This document shows, piece after piece, positions 2,670 to 60,694 of a DNA stretch of 64,000 nucleotides (positions within the stretch are counted from its first letter, which is position 1; each line of letters begins with the position of its first letter). The notes under the pieces are model-generated. The model ran no database searches. It was not told the origin of the DNA and worked only from the letters and a program-made list of their open reading frames with translations. The translations under genes were made by a program, and so were the position numbers. The stretch lies in NCBI RefSeq assembly GCF_053078305.1, contig NZ_CP166879.1; one strand, written 5' to 3'.

Positions 2670-2887
2670 GAAACCATCCTTCATTTCAGCGCGTGTATAA
2701 AACGCGCCCACTGAACTGCACTGCCCAACATTGAGCGGGCAGCGTAAAAACCAATACAGAATTGATACCTGGATGATATCAAATATCCAGTCTTAAATTG
2801 TGGCCTTTAGCGGAAAAATGAAAACATATGCTACAGAATGGCGCTTATCACGCCATTCTTCGCTGTTAATTCAGTAATTTTTCAGAA

Positions 2888-3865: not shown

Positions 3866-4042
3866 AGTTAAATCTCCAGTTTTTGACAAGGGCACGAAGT
3901 CTACTCGCAACGCGACGGCGAGACAAATTTTACGCAGGAATCAAACAACGGTGGGCAGTGACTAAAAAAAGCACGATCTGATGGTTTAGTAATTAAATTA
4001 ATCATCTTCAGTGATAATTTAGCCCTCTTGCGCACTAAAAAA

Positions 4043-4058
4043 ATCGATCTCGTCAAAT
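4043..4058 (+). promoter_or_regulatory. Candidate FNR binding site of the frdA promoter (TCGATctcgTCAAA)
   Basis: Dyad resembling the FNR consensus TTGAT-N4-ATCAA about 140 bp upstream of the frdA GTG; frd is a known FNR-activated operon. Confidence 0.4.
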
Positions 4059-4189
4059 TTCAGACTTATCCATCAGACTATACTGTTGTACCTATAAAGG
4101 AGCAGTGGAATAGCGTTCGCAGACCGTAACTTTCAGGCACTTACCCTGAAGTACGGGGCTGTGGGATAAAAACAATCTGGAGGAATGTC

Positions 4190-34893: not shown

Positions 34894-35118
34894 ATGACAC
34901 GCAACGCAACGCAACGCAACGCAACGCAACGCAACGCAACGCAACGCAACGCAACGCAACGCAACGCAACGCAACGCAACGCAACGCAACGCAACGCAAC
35001 GCAACAATATGCTCGCCTGAACTCTCTCCGTCAAGTACCTCTACCTCCGTGCTTTCTGGAGGTACTGTATGAATATACGCAACAATCATCTACCGGGAAC
35101 AGAAACTCTTTTTTCTGA
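34894..35118 (+). CDS. Candidate leader ORF containing the pentanucleotide tract and overlapping the mod start
   Basis: ATG 34894 preceded by GAGG (34885-34888); reads MT(RNATQ)x7 through the repeat and ends at 35118, 50 nt beyond the mod ATG; coding status unproven. Confidence 0.35.
   Translation: MTRNATQRNATQRNATQRNATQRNATQRNATQRNATQQYARLNSLRQVPLPPCFLEVLYEYTQQSSTGNRNSFF
34899..35005 (+). repeat. Perfect pentanucleotide simple-sequence repeat (GCAAC)21
   Basis: 21 uninterrupted GCAAC units at 34901-35005 (tract with partial unit starts 34899), ending 63 bp upstream of the mod ATG. Confidence 0.97.
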
Positions 35119-37105: not shown

Positions 37106-37107
37106 TC

Positions 37108-40020: not shown

Positions 40021-40103
40021 ACACATGCATGATAACAAAGTGGAGGTGGTTTCACCCCCACTTTATAATTATACACACATCACAAAATTCGCAGGTGAGT
40101 TCA

Positions 40104-40802
40104 ATGACAACATGTTCTGAACTGAAGGAAAGAGCCCGTTTTGATGGTATGCATGATGCTTCTCTTGAAGTGGCATGGCAATTACTTATGACGAAAAGTG
40201 TATCCACTATTACTACTGAGATAATATCCGGTGCAGACATGTCCAATTTTTCAGTGATTATCAGGGAACGATATAAACATGCAATAGCAAAATCTCTTCT
40301 CAATCATTTATCTCCCGATGTTGTTTCTGACATCATCGGTTTATCTCATGATGAGTTCAATCAACAATATAAAGGCAATTTAACCAGACAACAACACCTG
40401 AGAGATATTGCTGTAAGTTTAACAGATAAAGGATTCACAGAATCATCTGCATGTAATATTGTCAACCTGGACCTAATGTTACTTCCTGAAGAAAACTGGT
40501 TACTTTATAAAGAAAATTACAATACAGGATATCAGGATGCACTTTATAAATCCGTATGGAGAATGCACACATACGAATATCCAACAGCAACCATCAGTTG
40601 TTTGACAAAATTAAATAATGAAAATATATTAAATATTATTACAGGTATAGAAGTAATACTCCTCGCAGCAAAAAAACCTGCATGTAAAGACAGAACAGAT
40701 AAAATTGCTGAAATGCTGAAAATACCATTCTCTGTCGTCAAAGAATTTATTGATGAACAGGCTTTATTGAACAAATCAAACATTCAGGGAACTGGCAGTT
40801 GA
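40104..40802 (+). CDS. Hypothetical protein immediately downstream of res
   Basis: ORF 40029..40802; preferred start ATG 40104 (MTTCSELKERARF) with AGGTGA Shine-Dalgarno; AT-rich like mod/res. Confidence 0.45.
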   Translation: MTTCSELKERARFDGMHDASLEVAWQLLMTKSVSTITTEIISGADMSNFSVIIRERYKHAIAKSLLNHLSPDVVSDIIGLSHDEFNQQYKGNLTRQQHLRDIAVSLTDKGFTESSACNIVNLDLMLLPEENWLLYKENYNTGYQDALYKSVWRMHTYEYPTATISCLTKLNNENILNIITGIEVILLAAKKPACKDRTDKIAEMLKIPFSVVKEFIDEQALLNKSNIQGTGS

Positions 40803-40848
40803 ACAAAACGCCAGTCCGAAGACTGGCGCAGTGATAAAACATTCTGCA

Positions 40849-41535
40849 TCATGCCACATTCTGCTCCTGAAGATGACGCAGACGATGGTCCCAGTTTCCC
40901 AGGTAATGCCCGGGCGTCAGCAGTACGCGGCGTCGCTCATTACAGAGCGAGTTACCAATCACCACTTCTCCGGCCACACCACACAACGACAGTTGTATAT
41001 ACGCCATGCCGGCTGCCAGCGGGTCAATATCCGTTGCCGACACCCACATCCTGCGATATGCCGGATACCCCGAACGGTTCAGGGTGTCAGCCATTGCCAG
41101 AATCATACTGCCGGCACCACAGGCAGGTTCACTGAGCGTGATAAAGGGTTTGTTCTCAAACAACGCCTTCACATCTCCCATCTGCATCTGTGCCATCATG
41201 CTGGCAACACTCCAGGGCGTGAAAAACTGACTCCGGTATTTATCCCCCAGTTCCAGTTGCATGAACACACTCCCCAGAAAATCACAGACTCCCTGCTCCA
41301 GTCCCTCAATGACATGAGCAAGCAAATGCGCAATGTGGATAACATCCTGCTTTTCATAACCACTGACGATCCGCAGATACTTCTGTTCCCGGGCCTCACT
41401 GAACTGAAGCCGGTTTTCCAAGGCAATCACACTACAGCTGACAAAGTCTTCAAACACCTTATGACGTTTGTGATAACAGGCTGTCCGGTTAAACAACGAA
41501 ATGAACTCCTTCTGATGGTCAGTCATGGTGGCCAT
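40849..41535 (-). CDS. N6-adenine DNA methyltransferase-like protein (HsdM-like fold, short, apparent degenerate motif IV)
   Basis: 228 aa; QFFTPWSV and SEPACGAGSM resemble the FxTP and AdoMet-binding motifs of HsdM-like methyltransferases; no canonical NPPF/DPPY seen. Confidence 0.55.
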   Translation of the reverse strand: MATMTDHQKEFISLFNRTACYHKRHKVFEDFVSCSVIALENRLQFSEAREQKYLRIVSGYEKQDVIHIAHLLAHVIEGLEQGVCDFLGSVFMQLELGDKYRSQFFTPWSVASMMAQMQMGDVKALFENKPFITLSEPACGAGSMILAMADTLNRSGYPAYRRMWVSATDIDPLAAGMAYIQLSLCGVAGEVVIGNSLCNERRRVLLTPGHYLGNWDHRLRHLQEQNVA

Positions 41536-41646
41536 GTTTTCTCCGTAAAAACAGGGAACACATGGCCCGGACAGGGGAACAGGTGTTCCCCTTCGGGTTG
41601 AAATGTTGATAAAACGGGCATCACGGACATGATACCCGGAGGTTAA

Positions 41647-46954: not shown

Positions 46955-47515
46955 TCAGCAGGGCTGTGCGACGATTCCATCACCCTGCAGACCAAACCGG
47001 TAACGCAGGGTGGTCAGTTGCTCCGCCATACGGCAGGCAGCATGCCATGTCCTGCGACGGGATATCCGTCCGGTAAACCGGTTCAGATAAATGACCTCAC
47101 GCGGTAACGGCTGATACCATCCTGTGTACTCGTTGCGATACATTCCCTGCCGGTAATACAGGCAGGGTGTCCAGACACCGCCACGACGGAACATACAGAC
47201 CCGCACGCTCAGATTGCCGGCCGGATTAGTGTACCAGCGACTGTAATATGACAGGTTATTGCGGGAAAAAAACACCCGCAACTGAGCCGTCATTCGCCGG
47301 AAAAAAGAAGAGATGCCCGGTTCAGGGCACAAAATAAACGTTGACATAAAGACTCCTGTAAAAAAACGGGAGCCTTCGCCCCGACGGACAAAAACTCCCG
47401 TCAGGGTTAAAACACCACCAGTACAGCATGGTGTTGCTGTCAGAAAAAGCCCGTTAATAAAGGGCGCAGTTATAAAGAAACCTTCATCGTCATGACTGAC
47501 GATATCTGCTCTCAA
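46955..47515 (-). CDS. Hypothetical protein; 5' part overlaps the left direct repeat so true start is uncertain
   Basis: 186-aa ORF; alternative start MSTFILCPEPG; possibly a prophage-remnant family but not confirmed. Confidence 0.3.
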   Translation of the reverse strand: MRADIVSHDDEGFFITAPFINGLFLTATPCCTGGVLTLTGVFVRRGEGSRFFTGVFMSTFILCPEPGISSFFRRMTAQLRVFFSRNNLSYYSRWYTNPAGNLSVRVCMFRRGGVWTPCLYYRQGMYRNEYTGWYQPLPREVIYLNRFTGRISRRRTWHAACRMAEQLTTLRYRFGLQGDGIVAQPC

Positions 47516-47773
47516 AGGTGGGCAGATTTACCACCACCAGAAACATCCTGGCTGCACATCCCCTTTCAGGTTACGGGGGTGTTGATCACCCGAAGGCGTT
47601 CCTCTCAGATCAACGGAACATTGGTGCCCACCGAAGCGGGATGTGGTCACCCGAAGGCGCTCCTCTCAGACCACTTATGGAGCATTGGTGGTCGCCGAAG
47701 CGACATGTAGCCACCCGAAGGCGCTCCTCTCAGGCCACTTGTGGAGCATTGGTGGTCGCCGGAGCGACATATA
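47449..47773. repeat. Direct repeat copy 1 (about 325 bp) with three degenerate tandem ~63-bp sub-units
   Basis: Near-identical to 49782-50038 over about 255 bp; sub-units begin CACCCGAAGGCG(C/T)TCCTCTCAG at about 47584, 47647 and 47711. Confidence 0.9.
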
Positions 47774-47812
47774 AGCCTGTATATTTTTAAATCACAAAAG
47801 ATGAATGTCAAG

Positions 47813-48168: not shown

Positions 48169-49086
48169 TTACTCATAGCCTAACAACTGACAATAAACCT
48201 GTTCAATATATCGTCCTCTGCCATCACCATGACCAAGATCAATTGATGTCAGTGCAAGTGCCTCCTTATAACTGTAACCGTTCATAATATGATATTTCAT
48301 GGCACTTGCAGCGTAACTGTACCGAAAACTGTGTGCAGTCTCATCTCTGCCTTTCAGTTCTCCATAACGACGTAATGTATTAAGATAATAATCCATTGCC
48401 GACTTAAGATTATCTCTGTCTATAAGACGTCCATTATGTTCACTGGCATATTTGAGTGCATAATTAACAGCATCAAGAACGTTATCCCGGTCAACAACCG
48501 TTGTCATTCTTTCCCGTCCCCCTTTCGTACCAAAAATCACTCTTATTTTTTCATCTCCCCGTTGTAACGCTTTTTTCCAGGTTCGTAATGATTTGGCCGA
48601 CTGGATAGCTTCTTCATTTCTCAGACCGAGGTAACGTGACAGTTTAACAACAGCAGCCACCCCTTTATCTTTTGCTTCCACACGCTGAAGAATCTCCCGA
48701 AAACGCTCATCCGTGATTAATTTTTTTGTTCCCTTACGACTGGAGCCGGAAATGCCTAACGCTTTATTGCTGAGACGAGGATGTTCGGGATCAGCCATCT
48801 TATATTTACCTGCCTGACGTAACATAACCCGTATTGCAGACATTTCATTTTCCCTTGTTCGCCCAGAAACATTATTCCGGCTTCTCATATATAGCTCAAT
48901 ATGCCGGACTTTTACCTGCGCGGCAGAACTGATCTGTACATTCATTTTTGCCAGACTTTCAGCAAAGCGGTGCATGATCCTGGTGTAATCACTCAGCTTC
49001 TTGAAGCTGCCTTTGTCTTTTCGAATGTGAGCAACCAGATCCTGTTTCAGTAATTTTTCACGTCTGGACATCAACTTCTCCTGCAC
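48169..49086 (-). CDS. Putative tyrosine-type site-specific recombinase
   Basis: 305 aa; C-terminal AHSFRYSYAASAM (H-x-x-R box) and LGHGDGRGRYIEQVY (His...Tyr) resemble tyrosine recombinase catalytic motifs; flanked by long direct repeats. Confidence 0.5.
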   Translation of the reverse strand: MQEKLMSRREKLLKQDLVAHIRKDKGSFKKLSDYTRIMHRFAESLAKMNVQISSAAQVKVRHIELYMRSRNNVSGRTRENEMSAIRVMLRQAGKYKMADPEHPRLSNKALGISGSSRKGTKKLITDERFREILQRVEAKDKGVAAVVKLSRYLGLRNEEAIQSAKSLRTWKKALQRGDEKIRVIFGTKGGRERMTTVVDRDNVLDAVNYALKYASEHNGRLIDRDNLKSAMDYYLNTLRRYGELKGRDETAHSFRYSYAASAMKYHIMNGYSYKEALALTSIDLGHGDGRGRYIEQVYCQLLGYE

Positions 49087-49120: not shown

Positions 49121-49171
49121 GCAGATGAGTTTTTCTGTTGTGCCGTGAACACAACAGAAAAACTCATCTGC
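49121..49171. other. Perfect 22-bp-stem hairpin 35 bp upstream of the recombinase start
   Basis: GCAGATGAGTTTTTCTGTTGTG - ccgtgaa - CACAACAGAAAAACTCATCTGC, arms exactly complementary. Confidence 0.85.
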
Positions 49172-49781
49172 ATTTCTCCCTGACGACACGGTTAAACGTT
49201 GCGATCCTTCGGGTAGTGACTGCCTGTGCGCCAGGGTAGCGCAGATTGTTTAGGTATTGAGGGGTAACAAATCGGTGTTGCACACCGACTGCAGCATTTG
49301 CTGTACCTGTCTCCAGGTCGCCCCCGACACCACCTCTAATAAGTGGTATCGCCGATTCGGCATCTCACTACATAAAACTCCTTAAAAAAACAATTGATTC
49401 TGCAAAAAACCATTTATGGACGTTATTCACAAAATCGTCCGTAAATTTGCAGAAGAGGTTGAAAAAACACTCTCACGCCGGGTCACTTCTTCAAATGTTA
49501 AAAAACATCACGTGAAACGGCAGTTCGTGCGGGTTCGTTAAGCAGACGCGCGTGCGTCACTTTGTCATCGTGACACGCTGACGAAAGTGACGCCGCGCAG
49601 CTTCAGACGCCAGATACACGCGTAAGCGACCAAATTTCAAATGGTCTTATACAGCGCGCACAGTCGCAGGAAGTGCTGGCAAACAAATGAAAAGAATAAA
49701 AGAAGTCAATACCGCCATTACGCAGTAAGAACATTCCGGCATCACCGGATGGATAAGGATCACACAACCACTGCTGTGTAT

Positions 49782-50038
49782 TGCCCGTAATAAAGGGCGC
49801 GGTTAAAAGAAACCTTCATCGTCATGACTGACGATATCTGCTCTCAAAGGTGGGCAGATTTACCACCACCAGAAACATCCTGGCTGCACATCCCCTTTCA
49901 GGTTACGGGGGTGTTGATCACCCGAAGGCGTTCCTCTCAGATCAACGGAACATTGGTGCCCACCGAAGCGGGATGTGGTCACCCGAAGGCGCTCCTCTCA
50001 GACCACTTATGGAGCATTGGTGGTCGCCGAAACGACAG
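49782..50038. repeat. Direct repeat copy 2 (about 255 bp, two ~63-bp sub-units)
   Basis: Matches 47449-47705 nearly base for base; diverges after GGTCGCCGAA. Confidence 0.9.
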
Positions 50039-50385
50039 ATAATGTATTCTGAGCATATCAGAGCGCATAAAAGGCGTCAATTATCCATGCTCCCTCACGA
50101 AACAGAAGCTGAACTCTTAACACCTGCTATCGGAACTCACTGAATAAACAACTAAAAAGGACATTGTGAAAATTAACATCAACAGTATGTAAAGTGATTT
50201 GTTTTGTCTTAAATGGGTGAATGTAAAAAAATATTCTATACAATCCACACATCCTTGTATCATATATCAAGTAAACATCCACAGAGATAACAGCTTATTT
50301 CAAATAAGCAGATTCTGTTTGATACTTCAGAAAAATAGTATATGCTCCTGATTTACTGATGTTATAAGTTATACAGGATAGTTAA

Positions 50386-51342
50386 ATGTGTGATTTTATA
50401 AAATCATGTTATGCAGCACCAAGAATTAACAAAATGGCTGATTTTTTCTCATCAACAGCATCTGGAGTAAAACATAAACCTTTGAAGCATGTAAAAATTG
50501 ATAACAGGCTTTTCCCATCTCCTGAGTATATAATTTTTTCTGACTATCTTACGAAAAACAGTGGTCCATTTGTTAACCACTACTTTTGCAGTATTCCATA
50601 CAGCAAAGAAGAAGAATGCAGGCTGGGTGTGACTATTATGAAATATGCAAGCCATCGAAATAAGCCATTGAGCTTATGGTGTCTTGGAATGGCAGAAGGA
50701 GCCATGGCCAGAACAATTTCTCAACTATCAAAAGGACAGGTTTTATCATTAACAACCAGCCCAACAAAAGAAAATGAACCTGTATTCTTTAGTCATGGTT
50801 CTCATATTCACTCTTACTTTATTTGCTCCCCATTCTTTCTTGTTCATGAAGAAATAAAAAATAACAACCCTGAACTATTTCCTCATGGTTTTGATATTAT
50901 AATAGAAGATACAACGTTTCAGATGTATTCTCCCGACAGAGAACAACAAATAAAACATGTAAAAAAAACATTAAAATACGATGGTATTTTCATTTTCACA
51001 GAGAAATTTTCCACCTCCACAAAAGAATATCAGATTAGAGAATATCAAAAAGATTTTTCATTTAAACAAAGATATTTTTCACAAGATGAAATAGACGCAA
51101 AAAAAGAAAACGTTCTTAATATCATGAATTTAAATGAAGTAACTCTCGAAAGAATGATTACAGCCATTAAGTCACATTTTAAATATTATTCTGTCTACTG
51201 GAATAGTGGTAATTTCTATTCAATAGCTGCCAGCAATTCGCAAAAAAACATTTCTGACTTTATAATGTTGCTTCCTGAGGCAGCCATACCTATGGAGTAT
51301 GTTTATTTTAAGGTTCCAACCAGAATAACAGGAGTTATATAA
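50386..51342 (+). CDS. Hypothetical protein with possible class I SAM-dependent methyltransferase fold (low-GC islet)
   Basis: 318 aa; glycine-rich LWCLGMAEGAM, acidic FDIIIED and DGIFIF segments are consistent with a Rossmann methyltransferase but weakly; AGGA Shine-Dalgarno; very AT-rich. Confidence 0.4.
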   Translation: MCDFIKSCYAAPRINKMADFFSSTASGVKHKPLKHVKIDNRLFPSPEYIIFSDYLTKNSGPFVNHYFCSIPYSKEEECRLGVTIMKYASHRNKPLSLWCLGMAEGAMARTISQLSKGQVLSLTTSPTKENEPVFFSHGSHIHSYFICSPFFLVHEEIKNNNPELFPHGFDIIIEDTTFQMYSPDREQQIKHVKKTLKYDGIFIFTEKFSTSTKEYQIREYQKDFSFKQRYFSQDEIDAKKENVLNIMNLNEVTLERMITAIKSHFKYYSVYWNSGNFYSIAASNSQKNISDFIMLLPEAAIPMEYVYFKVPTRITGVI

Positions 51343-51346
51343 TCCC

Positions 51347-51922
51347 ATGGACTTCTCAACATTAATAACATTCTCTATTATAACCTTATCACAAACAGTA
51401 TCGATTGGTCCGGGGGTGGCATTAATCATATCTGAAAGTCTGACATATGGTGCAAAAAAAGCAATAACGACAAGTATATATATAAGATTTGGCGAAATTG
51501 TTGTCATGCTAGTCACACTATTTTCTATAGCACTGGCAATCAATTTAGAAAAACATCTTGACACAATAAAAACTTGTGGTGGTGGATATCTGATTTTTCT
51601 TGGTATTACTCGTCTCATCAAGAGAAAAGGATCTAAAGGAAACAAAGCAAATATCCCTTTTTTAATACCGATGCTCAATCCAAAGGCCTTTTTGTTCTTT
51701 GCTGCATTTATGCCATCATTCATAAAAAACAACAGTAACTTTAATACTGACTTTTTGTTACTTTGTATCATTTTTATAATTGTGTCATTACTCACTGACT
51801 TAATATATATATGTATATGTTTAACTATAAGAGGGCGTATAAATTCATCATTTTCAAAATATGTTAATTTTATCAGCTCTTTATTTATACTTTTAACTGG
51901 CGCATATCTGGTTTTTTTATGA
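51347..51922 (+). CDS. LysE/RhtB-family small-molecule exporter
   Basis: 191 aa, six predicted helices, SIGPGVALIISESL and NPKAFLFFAAFMP family motifs; starts 5 bp after the preceding gene. Confidence 0.7.
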   Translation: MDFSTLITFSIITLSQTVSIGPGVALIISESLTYGAKKAITTSIYIRFGEIVVMLVTLFSIALAINLEKHLDTIKTCGGGYLIFLGITRLIKRKGSKGNKANIPFLIPMLNPKAFLFFAAFMPSFIKNNSNFNTDFLLLCIIFIIVSLLTDLIYICICLTIRGRINSSFSKYVNFISSLFILLTGAYLVFL

Positions 51923-52070
51923 TATGCCGTCAGGGTGTGCTTCCTTACATATCACGCCCTCTTCCAGACGTCGCTGGTCGTCGCCCTCTGCGTCCCTTAC
52001 TTTCAGCCCCTCTGAGCATAATCGCCCCTCCAGAGGAGCCCATCACAACGACAATGCCAGCGGGTTAATT

Positions 52071-52643
52071 TTATCTGACCCGGCCTTCAGCCACATCCTT
52101 CACACGTTTAACTAATGGCTCAATAAATTTATCTTTCAGATGCCCCGGTGCCGGAGATGCATACGTTATATATATCCGACTTCCTTTGCCATTTTTTTCA
52201 AGTTCAAGCGTCAGATGATCATCAAACTCGCCACCATCCCAGTCACTGCCCATTTTATAATAACTACCGGGCATGGCATCCCACATATGCCCGTTCTGAC
52301 TTATTGCTGCTGCGGCCCACTTCCCGTTCGCATGTCCGTTATTACGAATCGCATCGACTTCTTCATTTGAATAAAACTTATAGTACCGTTTCAGTCTTCC
52401 CGCAGCTGTATCCACATCAACAGGGACTTCTATGACATGATCACGTTTCTCTCTTTTTGCCCGGGGTGCCTGAGACAGATATTTGAGATCATCATCTGCC
52501 TGGTTTACACCTACGTTCAGTACTTTTGTCACAGCAAATGCACCGTCACTTATCTGCCTGTTCAGCTCTGCAATTTCCTGTGCAGAACAGGCACTCAGCG
52601 CAACACACGAAGCACAAACGAGTAACATTTTTTTAGTCAGCAT
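52071..52643 (-). CDS. Putative lipoprotein of unknown function
   Basis: 190 aa; signal peptide with lipobox ALSAC. Confidence 0.55.
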   Translation of the reverse strand: MLTKKMLLVCASCVALSACSAQEIAELNRQISDGAFAVTKVLNVGVNQADDDLKYLSQAPRAKREKRDHVIEVPVDVDTAAGRLKRYYKFYSNEEVDAIRNNGHANGKWAAAAISQNGHMWDAMPGSYYKMGSDWDGGEFDDHLTLELEKNGKGSRIYITYASPAPGHLKDKFIEPLVKRVKDVAEGRVR

Positions 52644-53601
52644 GTCTTCATCCTCATCAGCAGCTCTTCAGTGGATAACATCCACAGTTACACCTGCATT
52701 TACGCGCAACAAAAACACCAGATGAAGATTTTATTCATTCAGCTCCGCTAAAAATTAATCTTGCTGTGGAATATCGGGAAAACAGGAAGTTACGTTAAAA
52801 GCCGAAGGAAAAACTCACAATCCCTTCTTCAATCAGCCTCTGAAAATCGGCTTTTCAGCATGTCTTCCCCCATTGTTCGTATACCCTGTTCGATGGATTA
52901 TTATTGATCCATATGATCGCTTCACGTAAACACGATTCTGGCTCCACACCATTCTGGACGCGATTGTTACCAAAAAAGACAACCATCACAAGACGTCACA
53001 GACGGTGCGTGCGCTTACTCCTGTATATCTGGCGCAACAGAATCTACCAGTGTAAACTCTCTATGCTTTTGCGCAGAAGCAGTGGGCCTGGGTTCGCTTA
53101 TGTCCTGCATCTACAAGCGAATGACTGACCAGAGACTCCCATATCTGGTCAGTCGCCCATTTTTATTTTCCCTATACACTCAGACTACAATAGCCGTAAC
53201 AAACAGCATACCCCCAGTCATAGTGGCCCCTTTATCTTCTTATGGCTTGTCTGTGGTACTGGAGATAGAGCAACTGTGGGAGTACTGTTATGGCCCCCGG
53301 TAAGAAAAACTCTTGCTTAATGTACAGCAGAACTGTTCCCAGAAAGAAGCCTGTGCATATTTTCATAGAAGGAGATCACCCATAACGGCGTTTTTCACGG
53401 TAATACACGCCAGGTAAAGAATGCTGGATTATCAATCAAAGCTCCGCACAGGAAGCGCTTATGCCGTAGAGCGCCCTCTGGAGAAAAGTGCTACTTCTTG
53501 TCGATTCAGACTAGTTCAGGAAATTATACGAAAATATTACCTGAATGAGCTAAATGTTATTTACCTTCCTTTCTGTTCATTGTAAATTTTTTCTTGCTAA
53601 C

Positions 53602-53620
53602 GCAAATCATTATCATTACG
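53602..53620. promoter_or_regulatory. Candidate Fur box upstream of the TonB-dependent receptor gene
   Basis: GCAAATCATTATCATTACG: three NAT(A/T)AT-like hexamers (AATCAT TATCAT TACGAT) matching the Fur consensus GATAATGATAATCATTATC core, 21 bp upstream of the start. Confidence 0.5.
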
Positions 53621-53640
53621 ATTTTAGAAAAGGGAAATTT

Positions 53641-55689
53641 ATGAAGAACAAATATATCATTGCTCCGGGCATTGCCGTGATATGTTCTGCAGTCATATCA
53701 TCAGGTTATGCCAGTTCTGATAAAAAAGAAGATACGCTTGTTGTTACTGCCTCCGGCTTCACTCAGCAACTCAGAAATGCACCGGCCAGTGTTTCAGTCA
53801 TTACTTCAGAGCAACTGCAAAAAAAACCGGTTTCAGACCTGGTCGATGCGGTAAAAGATGTTGAAGGGATTAGTATCACCGGTGGGAATGAAAAACCGGA
53901 TATCAGTATACGTGGGTTAAGTGGCGATTATACATTGATTCTGGTCGATGGACGACGTCAGAGTGGTCGGGAATCCAGACCAAACGGCAGCGGCGGTTTT
54001 GAAGCCGGATTTATCCCTCCTGTGGAAGCAATTGAGCGTATTGAAGTTATACGTGGCCCTATGTCTTCCCTGTATGGTTCCGATGCTATCGGAGGAGTTA
54101 TTAATATCATAACCAAACCTGTTAATAACCAGACATGGGATGGCGTACTTGGGCTTGGGGGAATTATTCAGGAACATGGGAAATTTGGTAACTCAACCAC
54201 GAATGACTTCTACCTGTCAGGCCCATTGGTTAAGGATAAACTTGGTCTTCAGTTATATGGAGGAATGAACTATCGCAAGGAAGATAGTATCTCTCAGGGA
54301 ACACCAGCAAAAGATAATAAGAATATAACGGCAACACTCCAGTTTACTCCGACTGAAAGCCAGAAGTTTGTTTTTGAATACGGAAAAAATAACCAGGAAC
54401 ATACATTAACACCTGGTGATTCTCTTGATGCCTGGACTATGCGGGGAAATCTTAAACAACCAAACAGTAAAAGAGAAACACATAACTCACGTAGTCACTG
54501 GGTAGCAGCATGGAATGCCCAGGGCGAAATACTGCATCCTGAAATTGCTGTTTATCAGGAGAAAGTTATTCGTGAGGTTAAATCTGGTAAAAAAGATAAA
54601 TATAATCATTGGGATCTTAATTACGAGTCAAGAAAACCGGAAATAACCAACACGATCATAGATGCAAAAGTGACGGCATTTCTGCCGGAAAATGTGCTGA
54701 CCATCGGAGGTCAATTTCAGCATGCAGAACTCCGTGATGACTCAGCCACAGGTAAAAAAACGACAGAAACACAGTCTGTTTCAGTTAAACAGAAAGCTGT
54801 TTTTATAGAAAATGAATATGCTGCAACGGATTCTCTCGCCCTGACTGGAGGGCTGCGCCTCGATAACCATGAAATCTATGGCAGTTACTGGAATCCAAGA
54901 TTGTATGCTGTTTATAACCTGACCGATAATCTCACTCTCAAAGGAGGGATCGCAAAAGCATTTCGGGCCCCTTCGATTCGTGAGGTCAGTCCTGGATTTG
55001 GAACACTGACGCAGGGTGGTGCCTCTATTATGTATGGAAACAGGGACCTGAAACCGGAGACCAGTGTAACCGAAGAGATCGGTATTATTTATAATAATGA
55101 CAGTGGTTTTTCAGCAAGCGCGACTCTGTTTAATACAGATTTTAAAAATAAGCTGACCAGTTACGATATAGGCACAAAAGATCCAGTCACTGGGCTAAAC
55201 ACTTTTATTTATGATAATGTGGGTGAGGCAAATATCAGAGGTGTGGAGCTTGCAACTCAGATTCCTGTGTATGATAAATGGCGTGTATCTGCAAACTATA
55301 CATTCACTGACTCCCGTCGAGAAAGCGATGACGAAAGTCTCAATGGCAAGTCGCTGAAAGGGGAACCTCTGGAAAGAACTCCCAGACATGCAGCCAATGC
55401 AAAACTGGAATGGGATTACACTCAGGATATTACATTTTATTCATCTCTGAATTATACAGGAAAACAAATCTGGGCAGCACAAAGAAATGGTGCCAAGGTT
55501 CCCCGTGTTCGTAATGGATTCACTTCTATGGATATTGGTATGAATTACCAGTTCCTGCCAGGCACGCTGATTAATTTTGCCGTACTTAACGTCACAGACA
55601 GAAAGAGCGAAGATATCGATACCATTGATGGTAACTGGCAGGTCGATGAAGGACGTCGTTACTGGGCTAATGTAAGAATATCCTTCTGA
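53641..55689 (+). CDS. TonB-dependent outer-membrane siderophore receptor (IrgA/Iha/CirA-like)
   Basis: Start MKNKYIIAPGIAVICSA (ATG 53641, AAGGGAAA upstream); TonB box DTLVVTAS; plug motifs IRGPMSSLYGSDAIGGVINIIT; C-terminal aromatic residue (RYWANVRISF). Confidence 0.9.
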   Translation: MKNKYIIAPGIAVICSAVISSGYASSDKKEDTLVVTASGFTQQLRNAPASVSVITSEQLQKKPVSDLVDAVKDVEGISITGGNEKPDISIRGLSGDYTLILVDGRRQSGRESRPNGSGGFEAGFIPPVEAIERIEVIRGPMSSLYGSDAIGGVINIITKPVNNQTWDGVLGLGGIIQEHGKFGNSTTNDFYLSGPLVKDKLGLQLYGGMNYRKEDSISQGTPAKDNKNITATLQFTPTESQKFVFEYGKNNQEHTLTPGDSLDAWTMRGNLKQPNSKRETHNSRSHWVAAWNAQGEILHPEIAVYQEKVIREVKSGKKDKYNHWDLNYESRKPEITNTIIDAKVTAFLPENVLTIGGQFQHAELRDDSATGKKTTETQSVSVKQKAVFIENEYAATDSLALTGGLRLDNHEIYGSYWNPRLYAVYNLTDNLTLKGGIAKAFRAPSIREVSPGFGTLTQGGASIMYGNRDLKPETSVTEEIGIIYNNDSGFSASATLFNTDFKNKLTSYDIGTKDPVTGLNTFIYDNVGEANIRGVELATQIPVYDKWRVSANYTFTDSRRESDDESLNGKSLKGEPLERTPRHAANAKLEWDYTQDITFYSSLNYTGKQIWAAQRNGAKVPRVRNGFTSMDIGMNYQFLPGTLINFAVLNVTDRKSEDIDTIDGNWQVDEGRRYWANVRISF

Positions 55690-55725: not shown

Positions 55726-56362
55726 ACCAGTATAGTAATCAGTAACGTCAGCTTCCAGGTTGTAATGCTTTTAATTTTGATAAAAATAAACTTAATAAAT
55801 TACATTTGTTAAATATTGATAATTTTAATTTGGTTTTATTACTCCAGTTATACTCACACTCTATCTTTACACAATTCATCACCATTACACCTCCATAGCC
55901 TGTTGATTTAAAAGATTTAATTTCCTGTGAAACAATCAGGCCTGTATGAACCTGATTATACCACAGAATCTTTTAAGTTATTTAAATTTAACTCTCGGGC
56001 TTTTCTGTCAGTAAAATCAGAAAAATTGCAGGATTTCGTTTTTTTTGCTGCGAAGTGAAATGTATCTCATTTTTACTGCCTTCGCCAGTGCGTCAGGCAA
56101 TGGCAGGTAGTGTACCTGCATTCTGCTGTAACGCGTAATGTCGGGTAGTTTACTTAAACTTAATATGTTTTATGTTTGCATTATTATAAATCACTTTATT
56201 GCCTTTTGTCTGCTTTTTAATGGTTCCCGTTTTGTTCACTTCTGGCTTTATAAAAAATGGATGCTGAAGAAATGAAGGTAGTCCACCTTACATAATATTC
56301 ATGCATGATTTTTATGCTATTCCGACTGAGTGGAAGAAAATAAAGGAGAAAAGAGGGTATAT

Positions 56363-59300
56363 ATGAACCTCAGAAAAAAACATATCTGTATAGCCATATC
56401 ACTTGTTCTTAATCCGGCATCCATATCACAGGTCAGTGCTCAGGCAGATACAAATAAGTTAACTGTTGAAGTTGATGAAACCAGCCTTGGCCATGATGTC
56501 TATGGCGATGACTGGAAGAGCATTGAAATAGGTACAACGAAATTTACAGCAAAAGATGAATCAAAGGGAATTAATTTCGACCATAAATCACCGGTGGCTG
56601 AAGGACGTAACTCTATCGCGATTGGTACCAGTGCAGAGGCTGGAGGTGACATTAGCACGAAGGAAGGTTTGTACACAGGCGAGTCTATTGCGATAGGAGC
56701 GAAAACGAAAGCAACTAAAGAACAGTCAATTGCAATAGGTGGCGATACCAAAGCTACCGGATGGGGGGCTATTGTTATTGGTGGGGATGATTTAACTCCT
56801 TTGCATGGTAAGACTTATGGTCGGGAAAAAATAGAGAATGGCTATCTTGCATCGGAAGCGCAGGGGGATGGCAGTATTGCGCTGGGCAGCAGAACTTTTG
56901 CTAAAGGCGAATTGTCAGTATCGCTTGGTTCGGTGAGTTCTGCTGAGGGGATGGCCTCGAATGCAATTGGAGCCACGGCGGAAGCTAAAGGGGATATGGC
57001 GACTGCGGTTGGTTTTAATGCGCTGGCTAATGCCGGTAATGCTCTGGCCGTTGGTAGTCAGTCCTCTGCAAATAAAAACGATGCTCTTGCTGTTGGTTCA
57101 GAGGCAAATGCCGCTCAGAATGAAACGGTTGCCCTGGGGCATGGAGCAACCGTTACTGTCGCAAAGGGGAACGTGTCCATCGGCGCTGACTCCAGGGATA
57201 AGCAGGCACAAAAAGTAACAGAGGCTAAGGTCAGAACTAAAAGAGGCGCGGAAGTCACATATAGTGGCTTTGCCGGAAATAACGCAGCATCAGTAGTATC
57301 TGTTGGTGATGCGGGTAAAGAGCGTCAGATTGTTAACGTGGGGGCGGGTGCGATTTCTGACACAAGTACAGATGCCATTAACGGTAGTCAGTTATATGCG
57401 ATAGCGAAGACACTGAAAGATGACCTTGATGCCATTAATCCGACGTGGACGCTAAAGGATGATAAGGGAGGTTCTGCGACTATTAATGGTGGGAAGGATA
57501 ATAAGAATGGTAACACTTTAACTGTTAAAGGTGATGGAGATATTGCAGTTACTGTTAATGATAAAGGAATGACGATTGACGGAACAACGCTGAAAAATGA
57601 AATAAAAAATGATGCCATCAAAATTAAAGGTGGAGATGGTAAGACGCTGACGAAGAGTCTTGGTGACAATGTCGAAATCACTGGCAAAGGCCCAATAAAA
57701 ACCCAGGTGGCTGGAGATAAACTGGAGATTTCAGCAGAGACAGCTTCGTTGCCTGTAAATGGTGGTAACGGGAAGATTACAGTAAACAATGGTGATGGCG
57801 ATAAACTTGTTACTGCGAAAAACATTGCTGATGCCATAAACCAGTCTGGCTGGAAAATTAAAGCGGATAAAGATACCGGTGGTGTTATCGAGGGAAATGG
57901 TCAGGGAACAGAAACACTGATAAAACCCGGTGATATGGTTACGCTGAAAGCCGGTAAAAATCTCAGCGTGAAACAAAGTGGTGGTGATTTTACATTCTCT
58001 GTTATTGATACTCCGTCATTCAGCAGTGTTCAGCTGAATGGAAAAGGAAATAACGGAAGTGTAACGCTCTCATCCGAAGGTAATAAGCTGACATTGTCAG
58101 GCGGTAATGGTGCCGGACAAAATGGTGTTGTTATCAGTGGTGTGGCAAGTGGACTGGAAGGTAAGGAACTTTCGACGTTAACGAATACTGATAAAGAGAT
58201 GAAAAATGCCGCCAGTGTTGCAGACCTGAAAACGGCAATTGATGGTGTGTCCTCCAGTATGCAGGGTGCAGGTTTCGCACTGAAAGACTCTGATGATAAG
58301 GAAGTGAAACAGTCTCTTGGGCAGGCGATTAAAGTATCCGGGGACAGCAATATCACCACCACAGCCATCACCAATGGGGATAAGGGGTTAAAAATATCCC
58401 TGAATAATGACCTGAGCGTTGGGAGCAATAATACTCCCGGCAGCATCAAAGTTAACGGGGCTGATGGTAAGGAGGCTGTGAGTCTGAATGGTCAGGATGG
58501 CACGATTAAACTGACATCCTCGCCTGCTGCGGGTGGAAAGTCTGCGTCAGCAACCATTGCTGTTAATGCAGGCAAAGGTGGATTAACAGATGCTGCCGGT
58601 ACCACGAAGACACGTCTGACTTATACCCCGGATGGAAAATCACCGGCAGAAGAGCTGGCGACCATGAATGACGGTCTTTCTTTTGAGGGTGATGACGGAA
58701 AGGTTATTCATAAAAAACTGAATGAAAAACTGACCATCAAAGGTGGTGCAGAGAAGAATGCTGAAGTGACTGACGGCAATATCCGGGTTGATAATGATAA
58801 TGGCGGGCTTCTGGTGAGGATGACCAGAAACCTCCGTGATTTGGCCAGCGCGGTTTTTGGTACAGGTGGGCAGATAACAACAGTTAATGATAAAGGCATC
58901 ACAATCACAACACCTGCTGCGGGCGGTGGTCAGGGGAATACGGTTTCCCTTACCGGCTCCGGCCTGAATAACGGTGGAAATCAGATAACCAGTGTGGCCA
59001 GTGGTCTGAACGGCACTGCGCTTGCTGACGCCGGTGGAGATGTTCTGAATAATGCGGCCAATATCGGTGACCTGAAAAATGCTCTCCGTGACAGCAGTGC
59101 GGCACTGGTGAATACCGGCTTTGGTCTGCAGGCGGATGACGGAAGCAAGGTGAACACGTCTCTCGGGAAGCATATCACGGTTGGTGGTGACGGGCAGAAT
59201 ATCAGCACGACTGTTCAGAACGGGAGCCTGACGGTCAGACTCGCTGATAACATTCGCCTGGGAGATGACGGCAGTGTTTCTGTCGGCGGAACCCGGATGG

Positions 59301-60694
59301 ATAAAAACGGACTGACCATCAAGGATGGCCCGTCAGTGACTGTGAACGGTATTGATGCGGCTGGCCGGGTTATTTCCGGCGTGAAAGACGGGGTGAATGA
59401 CCAGGACGCCGTTAACGTTTCACAACTGAACCGTGAAATCAGTCAGGCAACGGCAGCAACGACCTGGGCACTGAAGACTGAATCCGGTGATGAGGCTGTT
59501 GCTGTTTCCTCCCAGACGGTTGAAGTCCGTCACGGACAGAATACCCGGGTTTCAGCCATCAGTAAGGATGATAAGGGAAATTACAGCTATGAGATTGATG
59601 TGACGGGGATTCCGGTGGAGTACACCGACAGCCAGGGGAACCCGCTTGTCAATATTGGTGGTCGTTTTTACACACAGACCGAAGATGCTGCGACCGGGAA
59701 ACTGACAATGACGCCGGCTGAGCCGGCCCGTGTCAGAATAAGCAGTGAGCAGCCTCTTGTTCTGACAAATGTGGCGGCCGGAAATGTGTCACCGGTATCC
59801 ACGGATGCGGTTAACGGGAGCCAGCTGGCATCTGCAGCCAGAATTGCTGGCGGTGATAATGTTGTCTGGAAAGACGGAAAAGCAGCGCTGGCTCCTGACA
59901 CCTTCAGTGAGCTGACAACTGCAGGTGGCGGTAAGACAACGGTGAATGGTGGTGTACATAAAACACCGGATAATGTGGCTGATGCAGTGAATATGCTGAA
60001 CCGTGAAGGCACGAAGTATTTTAAAGCTGCCTCTTCCGGTCAGGCAGCAAAAGCGGAAGGGCGTGACAGTATTGCTGTCGGACAGGGGGCCGTTTCCCGG
60101 GGACAAAACAGCATTGCCATGGGTAATGGTGCTGAAGTCACGCGTCAGGCTGCTGCCGGCTCTGTTGCAGTTGGCAGCCATGCCCGTGCTGGCCGCGCGA
60201 ATACCGGGACTTATGCCCTGAACGGTCAGGCTGTTGCGGGACGTACCGGAAGTGATACTGCGGTGGTTTCTTTTGGTCAGCCGGGACAGGAGCGTCAGCT
60301 GCAGTCAGTGGCACCGGGTGTGTTGTCTGCGAATTCAACGGATGCCGTCAATGGCAGTCAGTTGCATGCAACTAACCGTCAGGTTGCCGGAAATACACAG
60401 GCGATAAACACCCTCGGGAATAAATTCAGTCAGCTGAGCTACCGGGTGGAAGAGCTTAACCGGGATATCCGTGGTGTTGGTGCATCGGCTGCGGCCATGA
60501 GCGGGATACCTCAGGCCTATCTGCCGGGTAAAAGTCTGATGGGGCTGGGTGTCGGTGGATATGGTGGTGAAAGCGCCATTGCAATAGGGGTGTCCCGAAT
60601 CTCCGATAACGGTAAGATGATAATGAAACTGAATGCAGGTCAGAACACCCGGGGTAATTTCTCCGTCGGTGCCGGTGTGGGCTGGCAGTGGTAA
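56363..60694 (+). CDS. Large trimeric autotransporter adhesin (UpaG/EhaG-like)
   Basis: Start MNLRKKHICIAISLVLNPASISQVSAQA (ATG 56363); many head/neck repeats (SIAIGTSAEA, AVGFNALANAGNALAVGSQSSA, NAIGATAEA); C-terminal YadA anchor ending GAGVGWQW. Confidence 0.85.
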   Translation: MNLRKKHICIAISLVLNPASISQVSAQADTNKLTVEVDETSLGHDVYGDDWKSIEIGTTKFTAKDESKGINFDHKSPVAEGRNSIAIGTSAEAGGDISTKEGLYTGESIAIGAKTKATKEQSIAIGGDTKATGWGAIVIGGDDLTPLHGKTYGREKIENGYLASEAQGDGSIALGSRTFAKGELSVSLGSVSSAEGMASNAIGATAEAKGDMATAVGFNALANAGNALAVGSQSSANKNDALAVGSEANAAQNETVALGHGATVTVAKGNVSIGADSRDKQAQKVTEAKVRTKRGAEVTYSGFAGNNAASVVSVGDAGKERQIVNVGAGAISDTSTDAINGSQLYAIAKTLKDDLDAINPTWTLKDDKGGSATINGGKDNKNGNTLTVKGDGDIAVTVNDKGMTIDGTTLKNEIKNDAIKIKGGDGKTLTKSLGDNVEITGKGPIKTQVAGDKLEISAETASLPVNGGNGKITVNNGDGDKLVTAKNIADAINQSGWKIKADKDTGGVIEGNGQGTETLIKPGDMVTLKAGKNLSVKQSGGDFTFSVIDTPSFSSVQLNGKGNNGSVTLSSEGNKLTLSGGNGAGQNGVVISGVASGLEGKELSTLTNTDKEMKNAASVADLKTAIDGVSSSMQGAGFALKDSDDKEVKQSLGQAIKVSGDSNITTTAITNGDKGLKISLNNDLSVGSNNTPGSIKVNGADGKEAVSLNGQDGTIKLTSSPAAGGKSASATIAVNAGKGGLTDAAGTTKTRLTYTPDGKSPAEELATMNDGLSFEGDDGKVIHKKLNEKLTIKGGAEKNAEVTDGNIRVDNDNGGLLVRMTRNLRDLASAVFGTGGQITTVNDKGITITTPAAGGGQGNTVSLTGSGLNNGGNQITSVASGLNGTALADAGGDVLNNAANIGDLKNALRDSSAALVNTGFGLQADDGSKVNTSLGKHITVGGDGQNISTTVQNGSLTVRLADNIRLGDDGSVSVGGTRMDKNGLTIKDGPSVTVNGIDAAGRVISGVKDGVNDQDAVNVSQLNREISQATAATTWALKTESGDEAVAVSSQTVEVRHGQNTRVSAISKDDKGNYSYEIDVTGIPVEYTDSQGNPLVNIGGRFYTQTEDAATGKLTMTPAEPARVRISSEQPLVLTNVAAGNVSPVSTDAVNGSQLASAARIAGGDNVVWKDGKAALAPDTFSELTTAGGGKTTVNGGVHKTPDNVADAVNMLNREGTKYFKAASSGQAAKAEGRDSIAVGQGAVSRGQNSIAMGNGAEVTRQAAAGSVAVGSHARAGRANTGTYALNGQAVAGRTGSDTAVVSFGQPGQERQLQSVAPGVLSANSTDAVNGSQLHATNRQVAGNTQAINTLGNKFSQLSYRVEELNRDIRGVGASAAAMSGIPQAYLPGKSLMGLGVGGYGGESAIAIGVSRISDNGKMIMKLNAGQNTRGNFSVGAGVGWQW

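What the first reader, a model, noticed from the sequence alone, without database searches (positions are those of the whole stretch)
50100..52643. Very AT-rich islet encoding a methyltransferase-fold protein, a LysE-type exporter and a lipoprotein
From about 50100 to 51920 the composition drops sharply to AT-rich sequence, distinct from the flanks. It holds a 318-aa protein with weak class I SAM-methyltransferase-like segments, followed 5 bp later by a LysE/RhtB-family exporter, with a convergent lipoprotein gene next to it. A modifying enzyme coupled to a dedicated exporter suggests production and export of a small modified metabolite, or a resistance module. I do not recognise this pair as a characterised system.
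Basis: partly seen in the sequence, partly recalled or inferred. Interest (0 to 1): 0.6.

Follow-up and report, generated by a model that had tools for sequence, protein, structure and literature searches.

The report
Mobile enzyme-plus-exporter gene pair
A foreign, AT-rich two-gene operon on an E. coli conjugative element pairs an uncharacterised CmoA-like methyltransferase-fold enzyme with its own LysE-type amino-acid exporter, and most likely makes and secretes an unknown small amino-acid-like compound.

Summary
Window 50040-51922 is about 31-33% GC against about 50% flanks. It holds an intact operon: a 318-aa enzyme (50386-51342) and a 191-aa LysE/RhtB-type exporter (51347-51922). The convergent lipoprotein gene is not part of it.

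The pair is co-inherited across phyla (Enterobacteria, Firmicutes, some Rhizobiales), with gaps of -11 to +24 nt and correlated divergence (r=0.90). It is always AT-rich relative to proteobacterial hosts and is the only cargo of a ~5.7 kb E. coli/Salmonella mobilizable plasmid.

Elsewhere the same enzyme pairs with an MFS efflux pump plus a BshC-like ligase, or is fused to an EamA transporter, a class II LysRS or an adenylation domain. A sister clade sits inside phage polyvalent proteins.

Best reading: synthesis and export of an amino-acid-like metabolite, possibly lysine-related. The chemistry is unproven, and this clade lacks the canonical SAM-contact acids.

The parts
50038..50385 (+). AT-rich upstream spacer of the operon. 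Its left junction follows the STAXI repeat copy that ends at 50037. It contains one sigma-70-like match (50319-50346) and an AGGA ribosome-binding site before the ATG.
   Evidence: GC 0.327. Promoter-like sites are not more frequent than in shuffles, so no promoter is demonstrated. Sequence read. STAXI match at 49872-50037.
50386..51342 (+). 318-aa enzyme: class I methyltransferase fold, CmoA-like core plus a ~90-aa N-terminal helical lid. It is a member of an unnamed family. All 41 family-invariant residues are present.
51347..51922 (+). 191-aa LysE/RhtB-family transporter, probably translationally coupled to the enzyme gene (4-nt spacer).
   Evidence: NCBIfam TIGR00949 E=4e-16 and RhtB PRK10520 E=1.7e-10, both below equivalog cut-offs. 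Orthologues carry PF01810 LysE. Alignment A2. Identity co-varies with the enzyme, r=0.90.
51923..52070 (.). GC-richer spacer between the operon and the lipoprotein gene. The right-hand junction of the acquired segment lies somewhere in here.
   Evidence: Genomes that have only the lipoprotein gene match the window from position 52071 onward (query 1972 of 50100-52700). GC recovers immediately after the LysE stop codon.

Best explanation
The islet is a self-contained, horizontally mobile two-gene operon. The first product is a cytoplasmic enzyme of a previously undescribed CmoA-like branch of the class I methyltransferase fold. I infer that it converts a central metabolite into a small amino-acid-like product. 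The substrate is probably SAM and/or a basic amino acid, possibly lysine. The second product, a LysE/RhtB-type exporter that has co-evolved with the enzyme, pumps that product out of the cell. The module would then act as a secreted-metabolite trait (antimetabolite or allelochemical, less likely a signal) carried as cargo by ICEs and plasmids.

Shown: the fold, the family, the operon structure, co-inheritance, mobility, and recurrent coupling to exporters and to amino-acid-activating enzymes.

Inferred: the direction of transport, the amino-acid-like nature of the product, the lysine link and the ecological role.
For: 1. The operon is tight and ancient. LysE lies immediately downstream (-11 to +24 nt) in every enterobacterial and Firmicute locus sampled and in 3 Rhizobiales loci. 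This covers 17 of the first 95 loci fetched (L001-L095). Pairwise identities of the two proteins correlate with r=0.90.

2. The transporter partner can be swapped.
- In 57-61 rhizobial loci the enzyme gene faces an AraC regulator and an EntS/DHA3-like MFS efflux gene.
- P0125 is a physical fusion of two EamA repeats with the enzyme domain.
- Three unrelated transporter families are therefore linked to one enzyme.

3. The enzyme is linked to amino-acid activation.
- A class II LysRS is fused to a domain that is 45% identical to the window protein.
- That fusion sits in a cluster with a true class I LysRS and a WelO5-like oxygenase.
- An ANL adenylation domain is fused to the enzyme domain in P0146.

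4. The pair is sufficient as cargo. It is the only non-backbone content of a ~5.7 kb MOBQ plasmid found in about 30 E. coli/Salmonella PLSDB records.

5. The closest structural relatives (CmoA, BelI/CysG) act on small carboxylates.

6. There are precedents for LysE exporters and for CmoA-like enzymes in toxin pathways. From my own knowledge: MrsA/MrsC. From the literature read here: the MccS precedent.

7. The window copy keeps every invariant residue and is 99-100% identical in 7 genomes.
Against: - No product, substrate or phenotype is known.
- The window clade has lost both canonical SAM-contact acids. The motif I Asp is replaced by Cys/Ser/Thr, and the motif II Asp/Glu by Thr/Cys/Ser/Asn. 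SAM use is therefore not assured.
- No self-resistance gene other than the exporter is present.
- No regulator is adjacent in E. coli, and the AT-rich DNA may be silenced.
- The sister clade sits in phage polyvalent proteins, where a secreted metabolite makes little sense.
- An enzyme-transporter link is also compatible with detoxification.
Confidence: 0.5

Rival explanations
1. Anti-defence or host-takeover function. The enzyme consumes or converts SAM (or another host metabolite) to blunt SAM-dependent restriction, BREX or signalling when the element enters a new cell, as phage SAM lyases do. The RhtB-like exporter removes a toxic by-product such as homoserine lactone.
For: - A sister clade (HHalign probability 100%, E=5e-53) is embedded in phage polyvalent proteins. 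There it sits next to ART-PolyVal, InPase, Radical_SAM, GGDEF and LPD domains.
- 114 viral stretches encode that clade.
- Polyvalent proteins are proposed to be injected with the DNA to counter host defences (PMC5512222).
- The window copy lies in an ICE next to ArdC, an N6 DNA methylase and STAXI motifs.
- The exporter's best named relatives are homoserine/homoserine-lactone exporters.
- SAM depletion by CmoA-type enzymes has been raised as a possibility (PMC12783734).
Against: - The cellular clade, unlike the phage clade, has lost the SAM-contact acids.
- The rhizobial cassettes (AraC, MFS efflux, ligase) look biosynthetic or metabolic, not like anti-defence genes.
- In Pectobacterium the pair is chromosomal, next to gcvTHP.
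- There is no PADLOC match.
- Free-standing copies are absent from viral contigs.
Confidence: 0.17
2. Resistance or detoxification module. The enzyme modifies (for example methylates) an incoming toxic amino-acid analogue or xenobiotic, and the exporter expels it.
For: - Enzyme-plus-efflux pairs on plasmids are typical of resistance traits.
- The pair is the sole cargo of a small plasmid that is widespread in clinical and animal isolates.
- AraC-type regulators with efflux pumps in rhizobia fit xenobiotic responses.
Against: - Fusions and operons with LysRS, a BshC-like ligase and an adenylation domain point to building a molecule rather than neutralising one.
- Tight co-evolution of exporter and enzyme suggests the exporter handles the enzyme's own product.
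- There is no similarity to known resistance methyltransferases beyond the shared fold.
Confidence: 0.15
3. Macromolecule modifier. The enzyme modifies tRNA (for example tRNA-Lys), DNA or a protein, and the LysE gene is only a passenger.
For: - The nearest family, CmoA, belongs to a tRNA-modification pathway.
- The enzyme is fused to a full LysRS that could bring tRNA-Lys to it.
- The family has many invariant Lys/Arg residues.
- Polyvalent-protein domains often target macromolecules.
Against: - CmoA itself acts on small molecules, and the invariant basic residues align with CmoA's small-molecule site.
- Coupling to a transporter recurs independently with three transporter families, including a fusion. 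A passenger would not explain that.
Confidence: 0.08
4. Inert cargo: a silenced, functionless remnant of horizontal transfer in this strain.
For: - The islet is very AT-rich and has no adjacent regulator.
- No promoter signal stands out above shuffles, and no terminator was found.
- The islet is rare: 7 of 5426 complete E. coli genomes.
Against: - Both ORFs are intact.
- All 41 invariant residues are kept.
- The islet is 99-100% conserved in seven genomes from Europe and Japan.
- The family is under clear purifying selection across phyla.
Confidence: 0.05

Closest known systems
CmoA (carboxy-S-adenosyl-L-methionine synthase; PDB 4gek/4iwn/1im8)
   Same: - It is the only significant sequence relative.
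- Shared features: a GxxxG loop, the EKF...K...K...M helical insertion, the Q of motif IV and the C-terminal NF motif.
- CmoA is a methyltransferase-fold enzyme that does not transfer a methyl group and that binds a small dicarboxylate.
   Different: - Identity is only 12-16%.
- The score against TIGR00740 is 21 bits, against a cut-off of 193.
- The window protein has about 90 extra N-terminal residues carrying their own invariant motifs.
- CmoA D89 (ribose contact) is replaced.
- The position of CmoA R199 (cxSAM carboxylate) is variable.
- No CmoB or CmoX partner is present; the partner is a transporter.
MrsA/MrsC of Pseudomonas syringae (3-methylarginine toxin: SAM methyltransferase plus LysE-family exporter); similar LysE exporters occur in the AMB and FVG clusters
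   Same: It follows the same logic: a SAM-dependent enzyme makes a non-proteinogenic amino acid that a dedicated LysE-family exporter secretes as an antimetabolite. This rests on my own knowledge. The FVG preprint that mentions LysE and 3-methylarginine surfaced but was not read.
   Different: - There is no dedicated aminotransferase (MrsB) here.
- Sequence relatedness to MrsA was not tested, because I had no sequence for it.
AZE synthases AzeJ/VioH (methyltransferase-fold enzymes that cyclise SAM to azetidine-2-carboxylate)
   Same: - Class I methyltransferase fold with GxxxG instead of GxGxG.
- An N-terminal lid.
- The concept of a one-enzyme route from SAM to a toxic amino acid (PMC11794875).
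   Different: - The signature motifs FY, PFNxxGN and RxxYYxxC are absent.
- The ribose-binding Asp is absent.
- AzeJ is not among the top structural or sequence matches.
BelI/CysG (metal-dependent carboxyl O-methyltransferases of belactosin/cystargolide) and MM_2633
   Different: - Identity is 12-15%.
- Their His-His-Asp metal motif was not identified in this family.
- They are embedded in large biosynthetic clusters and are not paired with an exporter.
Polyvalent proteins of phages and conjugative elements (Iyer et al. 2017)
   Same: A sister clade of the same domain is one module of these giant proteins. Twenty core residues are shared.
   Different: - The window protein is free-standing, cellular and coupled to an exporter.
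- My term searches of the 2017 paper found only DNA adenine methylases and no description of this domain.
MccS/MccB system of Bacillus amyloliquefaciens (CmoA homologue supplying cxSAM for a microcin-C-like aaRS inhibitor)
   Same: A CmoA-like enzyme is used to build a secreted antibiotic that targets an aminoacyl-tRNA synthetase. The citation was seen; the details come from my own knowledge.
   Different: That pathway needs a peptide precursor and the MccB adenylyltransferase, and none of these is present here. The relation is an analogy and was not tested for homology.

Membership tests
Class I SAM-dependent methyltransferase superfamily | Rossmann-like seven-stranded alpha/beta fold | tested here: met
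   [not shown]
Class I SAM-dependent methyltransferase superfamily | Glycine-rich motif I after beta-1 (GxGxG or GxxxG) | tested here: met
   LGMAEG (G101...G105) in the window protein. The Phyllobacterium clade has the canonical LGAGAG.
Class I SAM-dependent methyltransferase superfamily | Acidic residue at the end of beta-2 that binds the SAM ribose, and an acidic residue preceding motif I | tested here: not met
   The window clade has C/S/T before motif I and T/C/S/N at the beta-2 end. The phage clade keeps D-I-G-x-S-E-G and hhh(D/E)PN.
Class I SAM-dependent methyltransferase superfamily | Binds SAM and transfers a methyl group | not testable with these tools
   This needs binding or activity assays, or ligand co-folding.
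CmoA (cxSAM synthase) equivalog | Score above the curated cut-off of TIGR00740 / PRK15451 | tested here: not met
   21.2 bits against 193.3, and 19 bits against 285.
CmoA (cxSAM synthase) equivalog | Arg199 (cxSAM carboxylate) and Asp89 (ribose) conserved | tested here: not met
   The R199 column is variable (K/R/E/Q/S/N), although the adjacent K239 is invariant. D89 is replaced by Thr or Cys. The E. coli CmoA sequence used was recalled from memory. It matched PDB 4gek in the stretches shown.
AZE synthase (AzeJ/VioH) | Signature motifs 17-FY-18, 133-PFNxxGN-139 and 172-RxxYYxxC-179 | tested here: not met
   Motifs taken from PMC11794875. A regex search of four representative family members, including the window protein, found neither PFNxxGN nor RxxYYxxC. 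The FY motif was not searched separately. AzeJ does not appear in the profile-versus-PDB search at E<=1.
LysE/RhtB transporter family (the 191-aa protein) | Match to LysE-family profiles, and a small multi-pass membrane protein | tested here: met
   TIGR00949 E=4e-16 over residues 21-185. Orthologues carry PF01810. RefSeq names it 'LysE family translocator'.
Named LysE-family exporters (RhtB, RhtC, LeuE, EamB) | Score above the equivalog cut-offs | tested here: not met
   40.8 bits against 209 (RhtB), 31.5 against 165 (LeuE), 22.4 against 288 (RhtC) and 13.3 against 193. The substrate therefore cannot be transferred by homology.
MrsA/MrsB/MrsC-type antimetabolite cluster | Methyltransferase plus LysE exporter plus dedicated aminotransferase | tested here: not met
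   Only the enzyme and the exporter are conserved. No aminotransferase was found in any of the 17 LysE-type loci.
LuxI-independent autoinducer synthase paired with a LuxR | The enzyme is the only candidate signal synthase next to a LuxR-type receptor | tested here: not met
   The adjacent LuxR is a bona fide TraR (406 bits against a cut-off of 250). A canonical traI lies nearby in S. meliloti pSymA. There is no LuxR in the E. coli loci.
Polyvalent protein (phage/ICE injected effector) | Several disparate domains in one large polypeptide | tested here: not met
   The window protein is a single-domain 318-aa ORF. Only the sister clade is embedded: reading frames of at least 485 aa, and 19 of 47 open across the whole 6.9 kb locus.
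Known anti-phage defence systems (PADLOC) | Match to any PADLOC model | tested here: not met
   No match at E<=0.1 for the enzyme, the exporter or the lipoprotein.

The most novel reading that the evidence does not exclude
The family carries out non-methylating, CmoA/AzeJ-style chemistry. It makes a new non-proteinogenic (lysine-like) amino acid that poisons lysyl-tRNA synthetase or lysine metabolism in competitors. The E. coli/Salmonella 5.7 kb plasmid and this ICE islet would then be small-molecule 'colicin' modules, with the co-evolved LysE exporter serving as both secretion and immunity. The phage-embedded sister domain would use the same reaction inside infected cells to sabotage host metabolism or defence.
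Probability: 0.2. Interest if true: 0.85.

Novelty: new variant of a known kind. Interest (0 to 1): 0.62.

Why it matters
If the reading is right, a two-gene cassette is enough to make and secrete a bioactive amino-acid-like compound. That cassette circulates on ICEs and small plasmids of E. coli (including STEC), Salmonella, Klebsiella, Pectobacterium, gut Firmicutes and, with other partners, on hundreds of rhizobial plasmids. The cassette is small, so it is directly testable by cloning and metabolomics.

The same catalytic domain is a frequent but undescribed module of phage polyvalent proteins. Solving its chemistry would therefore assign a function to hundreds of phage effectors. It would also explain the odd fusions to lysyl-tRNA synthetase, an adenylation domain and an EamA transporter.

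It would also define a new, currently unnamed branch of the methyltransferase fold, one that has dispensed with the canonical SAM-binding acids.

Tried and rejected
- Duplicated ORF translations at 47492-47790 and 49824-50143 suggested tRNA genes. ARAGORN found none. They are STAXI RNA-motif repeats.
- Lipoprotein as a third member of the module: rejected. It has a different GC content and is present alone in 10 genomes. It has no Pfam match. It is not homologous to the convergent 238-aa ORF of the small plasmid.
- Novel autoinducer synthase, suggested by LuxR, agr and AfsA neighbours: rejected for TraR, because a canonical TraI is present. The other adjacencies are single cases.
- AZE synthase: the PFNxxGN and RxxYYxxC signatures are absent in the members checked.
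- True CmoA: the score is far below the cut-off and key residues are not conserved.
- Giant carriers as NRPS/PKS: the two tested had no NCBIfam adenylation or KS hits. Two others (P0212, P0230) and relatives of a third carry polyvalent-protein domains.
- Defence system: no PADLOC hit.
- Free-standing copies in phages: none found in IMG/VR with two peptide patterns.
- The BshC-like ligase profile was not found in any fusion protein.
- The promoter/terminator scan gave nothing above shuffles.
- Literature searches by accession number and by gene-pair names found nothing relevant.
- The downstream 179-aa ORF in Agrobacterium/Rhizobium plasmids is not a LysE protein.
Full report
**Observation**

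The window is E. coli DNA. The 2.6 kb query is 99-100% identical to seven complete chromosomes out of 5426 genomes. In these it lies inside an integrating conjugative element with TIGR037xx transfer genes, ArdC, an N6 DNA methylase and an integrase-domain gene.

Sliding-window GC falls from about 0.51 to 0.27-0.38 between roughly 50040 and 51922, then recovers at once. The two genes are 32% and 31% GC with GC3 of about 0.25, against 47.6% for the window.

- 50386-51342 (+, 318 aa)
- 51347-51922 (+, 191 aa)
- 52071-52643 (-, 190 aa, lipobox LSAC)

The lipoprotein gene is 45% GC. It also occurs without the pair in ten other genomes, whose homology begins exactly at window 52071. The acquired unit is therefore the two-gene operon plus its upstream spacer, not all three genes. 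On the left the islet abuts the second copy of a 232-nt perfect direct repeat that is a STAXI RNA motif.

**The enzyme**

Pfam gives nothing significant. The only sequence relatives with a name are CmoA proteins, at marginal E-values. With a 36-sequence alignment the AlphaFold model is confident (pLDDT 93, pTM 0.92).

The family is distinctive in three ways:
- It has a ~90-residue N-terminal helical extension with its own invariant motifs (FF..TA.G, SIPY..EEECRLG).
- It has an EDTTFQMY block after beta-4 and a WNSGNF block near the C-terminus.
- The motif I glycines are kept, but the acidic residue before motif I and the acidic residue at the end of beta-2 (CmoA D89) are replaced by Cys/Ser/Thr/Asn. 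The CmoA R199 position is variable, next to an invariant Lys.

The AZE-synthase signature motifs published for AzeJ/VioH are absent from the family members checked. The fold claim is therefore solid, but 'methyltransferase' as an activity is not.

**Co-conservation with the exporter**

The 191-aa protein is a LysE/RhtB-family transporter. It scores far below any equivalog cut-off, so its substrate cannot be read off by homology. I examined 95 loci encoding the enzyme family (L001-L095).

A LysE gene lies immediately downstream in:
- every enterobacterial locus: the E. coli ICE, the E. coli/Salmonella small plasmid, the Pectobacterium chromosome and a Klebsiella ICE
- every Firmicute locus: Niallia, Blautia and Streptococcus equinus
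- three Rhizobiales loci

Intergenic distances run from -11 to +24 nt. The pairwise identities of enzyme and exporter correlate with r=0.90 over 45 comparisons, down to 40% and 25% identity. The pair has therefore been inherited as a unit across phyla.

The pair is 31-33% GC in E. coli and Pectobacterium, similar to its native-looking composition in Firmicutes. Even in Rhizobiales it is 13-15 points below its flanks.

Most strikingly, a ~5.7 kb MOBQ plasmid carries only rep, traD, mobA, one small ORF and this pair. About 30 E. coli and Salmonella PLSDB records carry this 70%-identical paralogue, most of them this plasmid; a few are larger plasmids.

**What replaces LysE elsewhere**

In most rhizobial loci the enzyme gene faces:
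- an AraC regulator (61 loci)
- an MFS transporter (57 loci)
- a ~476-aa protein (49 loci)

The LuxR-type neighbour seen in 11 loci is a genuine TraR, and a canonical TraI lies nearby. I therefore dropped the idea that the enzyme is a new autoinducer synthase.

**The wider family**

A profile search of 1.84 billion representative proteins found 608 members. Besides free-standing proteins there are informative fusions:
- A class II lysyl-tRNA synthetase fused to a domain that is 45% identical to the window protein. It lies in a cluster with a true class I LysRS, a WelO5-like 2OG oxygenase, AdoMet decarboxylase, a pyruvoyl arginine decarboxylase and an ABC exporter.
- An ANL adenylation domain fused to the enzyme domain.
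- A two-repeat EamA transporter fused to the enzyme domain.

So one enzyme family is coupled, independently, to three unrelated transporter families and to three unrelated classes of carboxylate-adenylating enzymes. That is the main basis for inferring that its product is a small amino-acid-like molecule that is either exported directly or first ligated and then exported. The lysine connection (LysRS twice, a LysRS-like fold, and the LysE family) is suggestive, not proven.

**The phage branch**

Forty of the listed representatives are proteins of 1400-5600 aa that carry the domain once. Two that I tested have no NRPS/PKS hits in NCBIfam. Others are polyvalent proteins on phage contigs:
- P0212 combines the domain with InPase, Radical_SAM, ART-PolyVal, LPD23 and LPD38, next to P22-type portal and capsid genes.
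- P0230 combines it with GGDEF and LPD38.
- Relatives of a third carrier carry the same set of polyvalent-protein Pfam families.

The embedded and free-standing clades are one family (HHalign probability 100%, E=5e-53). They share 20 core residues: H65, S69-I70-P71, D170, E174, F178-Q179, R185, G200, K207, E219, K222, K227, K239, M247, F265, W272 and N276-F277.

IMG/VR holds 114 stretches of the embedded clade, always inside long reading frames, and none of the free-standing clade. The phage clade keeps the canonical SAM-contact acids that the cellular clade has lost. In the parts of the 2017 polyvalent-protein paper that my term searches returned, this domain is not described.

**Mechanism**

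I commit to the following, at about 0.5 confidence. The operon encodes a cytoplasmic enzyme that turns a central metabolite into an amino-acid-like compound, and a dedicated exporter that secretes it. This gives the carrier element a competitive (antimetabolite) or, less likely, a signalling trait.

The steps that are shown are the fold, the operon, co-inheritance, mobility and the partner spectrum. The steps that are inferred are the direction of transport, the nature of the product and the ecological role.

The rivals are:
- an anti-defence, SAM-perturbing role with export of a toxic by-product (0.17), favoured by the phage branch and the ICE neighbourhood
- a detoxification or resistance pair (0.15)
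- a macromolecule modifier (0.08)
- inert cargo (0.05)

**Comparison with known systems and novelty**

In logic the module works like the MrsA/MrsC or AMB/FVG type of antimetabolite-plus-LysE systems. In fold the enzyme looks like CmoA. It fails the membership tests for the CmoA equivalog, for AZE synthases, for the Mrs cluster (no aminotransferase) and for named LysE exporters.

No paper mentions the proteins by accession. I rate it a new variant of a known kind. It has an unnamed enzyme family with unusual cofactor-site changes, a minimal mobile enzyme-exporter cassette, and an unexpected sister clade in phage polyvalent proteins.

Interest is 0.62. The finding is directly testable and potentially reveals new chemistry, but the function is still inferred from context alone.

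Noticed in passing
window 47476-47641 (-), 49872-50037 (-); direct repeat 47474-47705 / 49806-50037; extra 96-nt units at 47615-47774: Two strong STAXI RNA-motif matches (75.7 and 91 bits, gathering score 40.5) lie within a 232-nt, 100% identical direct repeat. The repeat brackets the integrase-domain gene (48169-49086) at a spacing of 2332 nt. The AT-rich islet starts right after the second copy.
   Followed up: partly
window 49214-49371 (-): An EFASI RNA motif (53.2 bits, just above the gathering score of 51.2) lies upstream of the integrase-domain gene. A perfect 22-nt inverted repeat with a 7-nt loop at 49121-49171 lies between the two.
   Followed up: no
window 52071-52643 (-): A 190-aa predicted lipoprotein (lipobox LSAC) with no Pfam, NCBIfam, PADLOC or PHROG match. 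It is 45% GC and is found in at least 10 other E. coli genomes without the enzyme-exporter pair.
   Followed up: partly
window 35069-40020 (+): A second AT-rich block (GC 0.34-0.40) encodes a complete type III restriction-modification system. Mod is 678 aa (PADLOC MTase_III, 775 bits). Res is 970 aa (NCBIfam PRK15483, 1073 bits against a cut-off of 564). Two unannotated ~257-aa ORFs follow at 40029-41601.
   Followed up: partly
window 53554-55689 (+) and 56330-60694 (+): An IreA-type TonB-dependent siderophore receptor (named from the RefSeq annotation of the matching genome) and a 1454-aa trimeric autotransporter adhesin (EmaA/YadA-like). Both are virulence-type cargo directly downstream of the islet.
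   Followed up: partly
L013 (Klebsiella michiganensis ICE) 287-4469: Next to the enzyme-LysE pair lies an AfsA (butyrolactone synthase)-ACP-ketosynthase-aldo/keto reductase-MFS cluster. That is unusual for Enterobacteria. A GGDEF gene lies on the other side.
   Followed up: no
L099 (metagenome contig Ga0556724_000565): A biosynthetic-looking cluster holds both a class I and a class II LysRS (the latter fused to the enzyme domain), a WelO5-like 2OG oxygenase, AdoMet decarboxylase, a pyruvoyl ArgDC, a guanidinoacetate-N-methyltransferase-like gene, NUDIX and an ABC exporter. It could make a lysine/arginine-derived product with aaRS self-resistance.
   Followed up: partly
Proteins P0105 (N-terminal ~495 aa) and P0114 (C-terminal ~495 aa); P0109 N-terminus: Further fusions of the enzyme domain. 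One partner is an unknown ~300-aa region shared by P0105 and P0114 (26% identity, E=1e-23), placed on either side of the domain. Another is a P-loop, sulfotransferase-like N-terminus in P0109 (weak).
   Followed up: partly
L096 (E. coli plasmid NZ_AP022820.1) 2861-3577: The only other non-backbone ORF of the 5.7 kb plasmid is a 238-aa hypothetical protein directly after mobA. It has no family match and is not related to the window's lipoprotein.
   Followed up: partly
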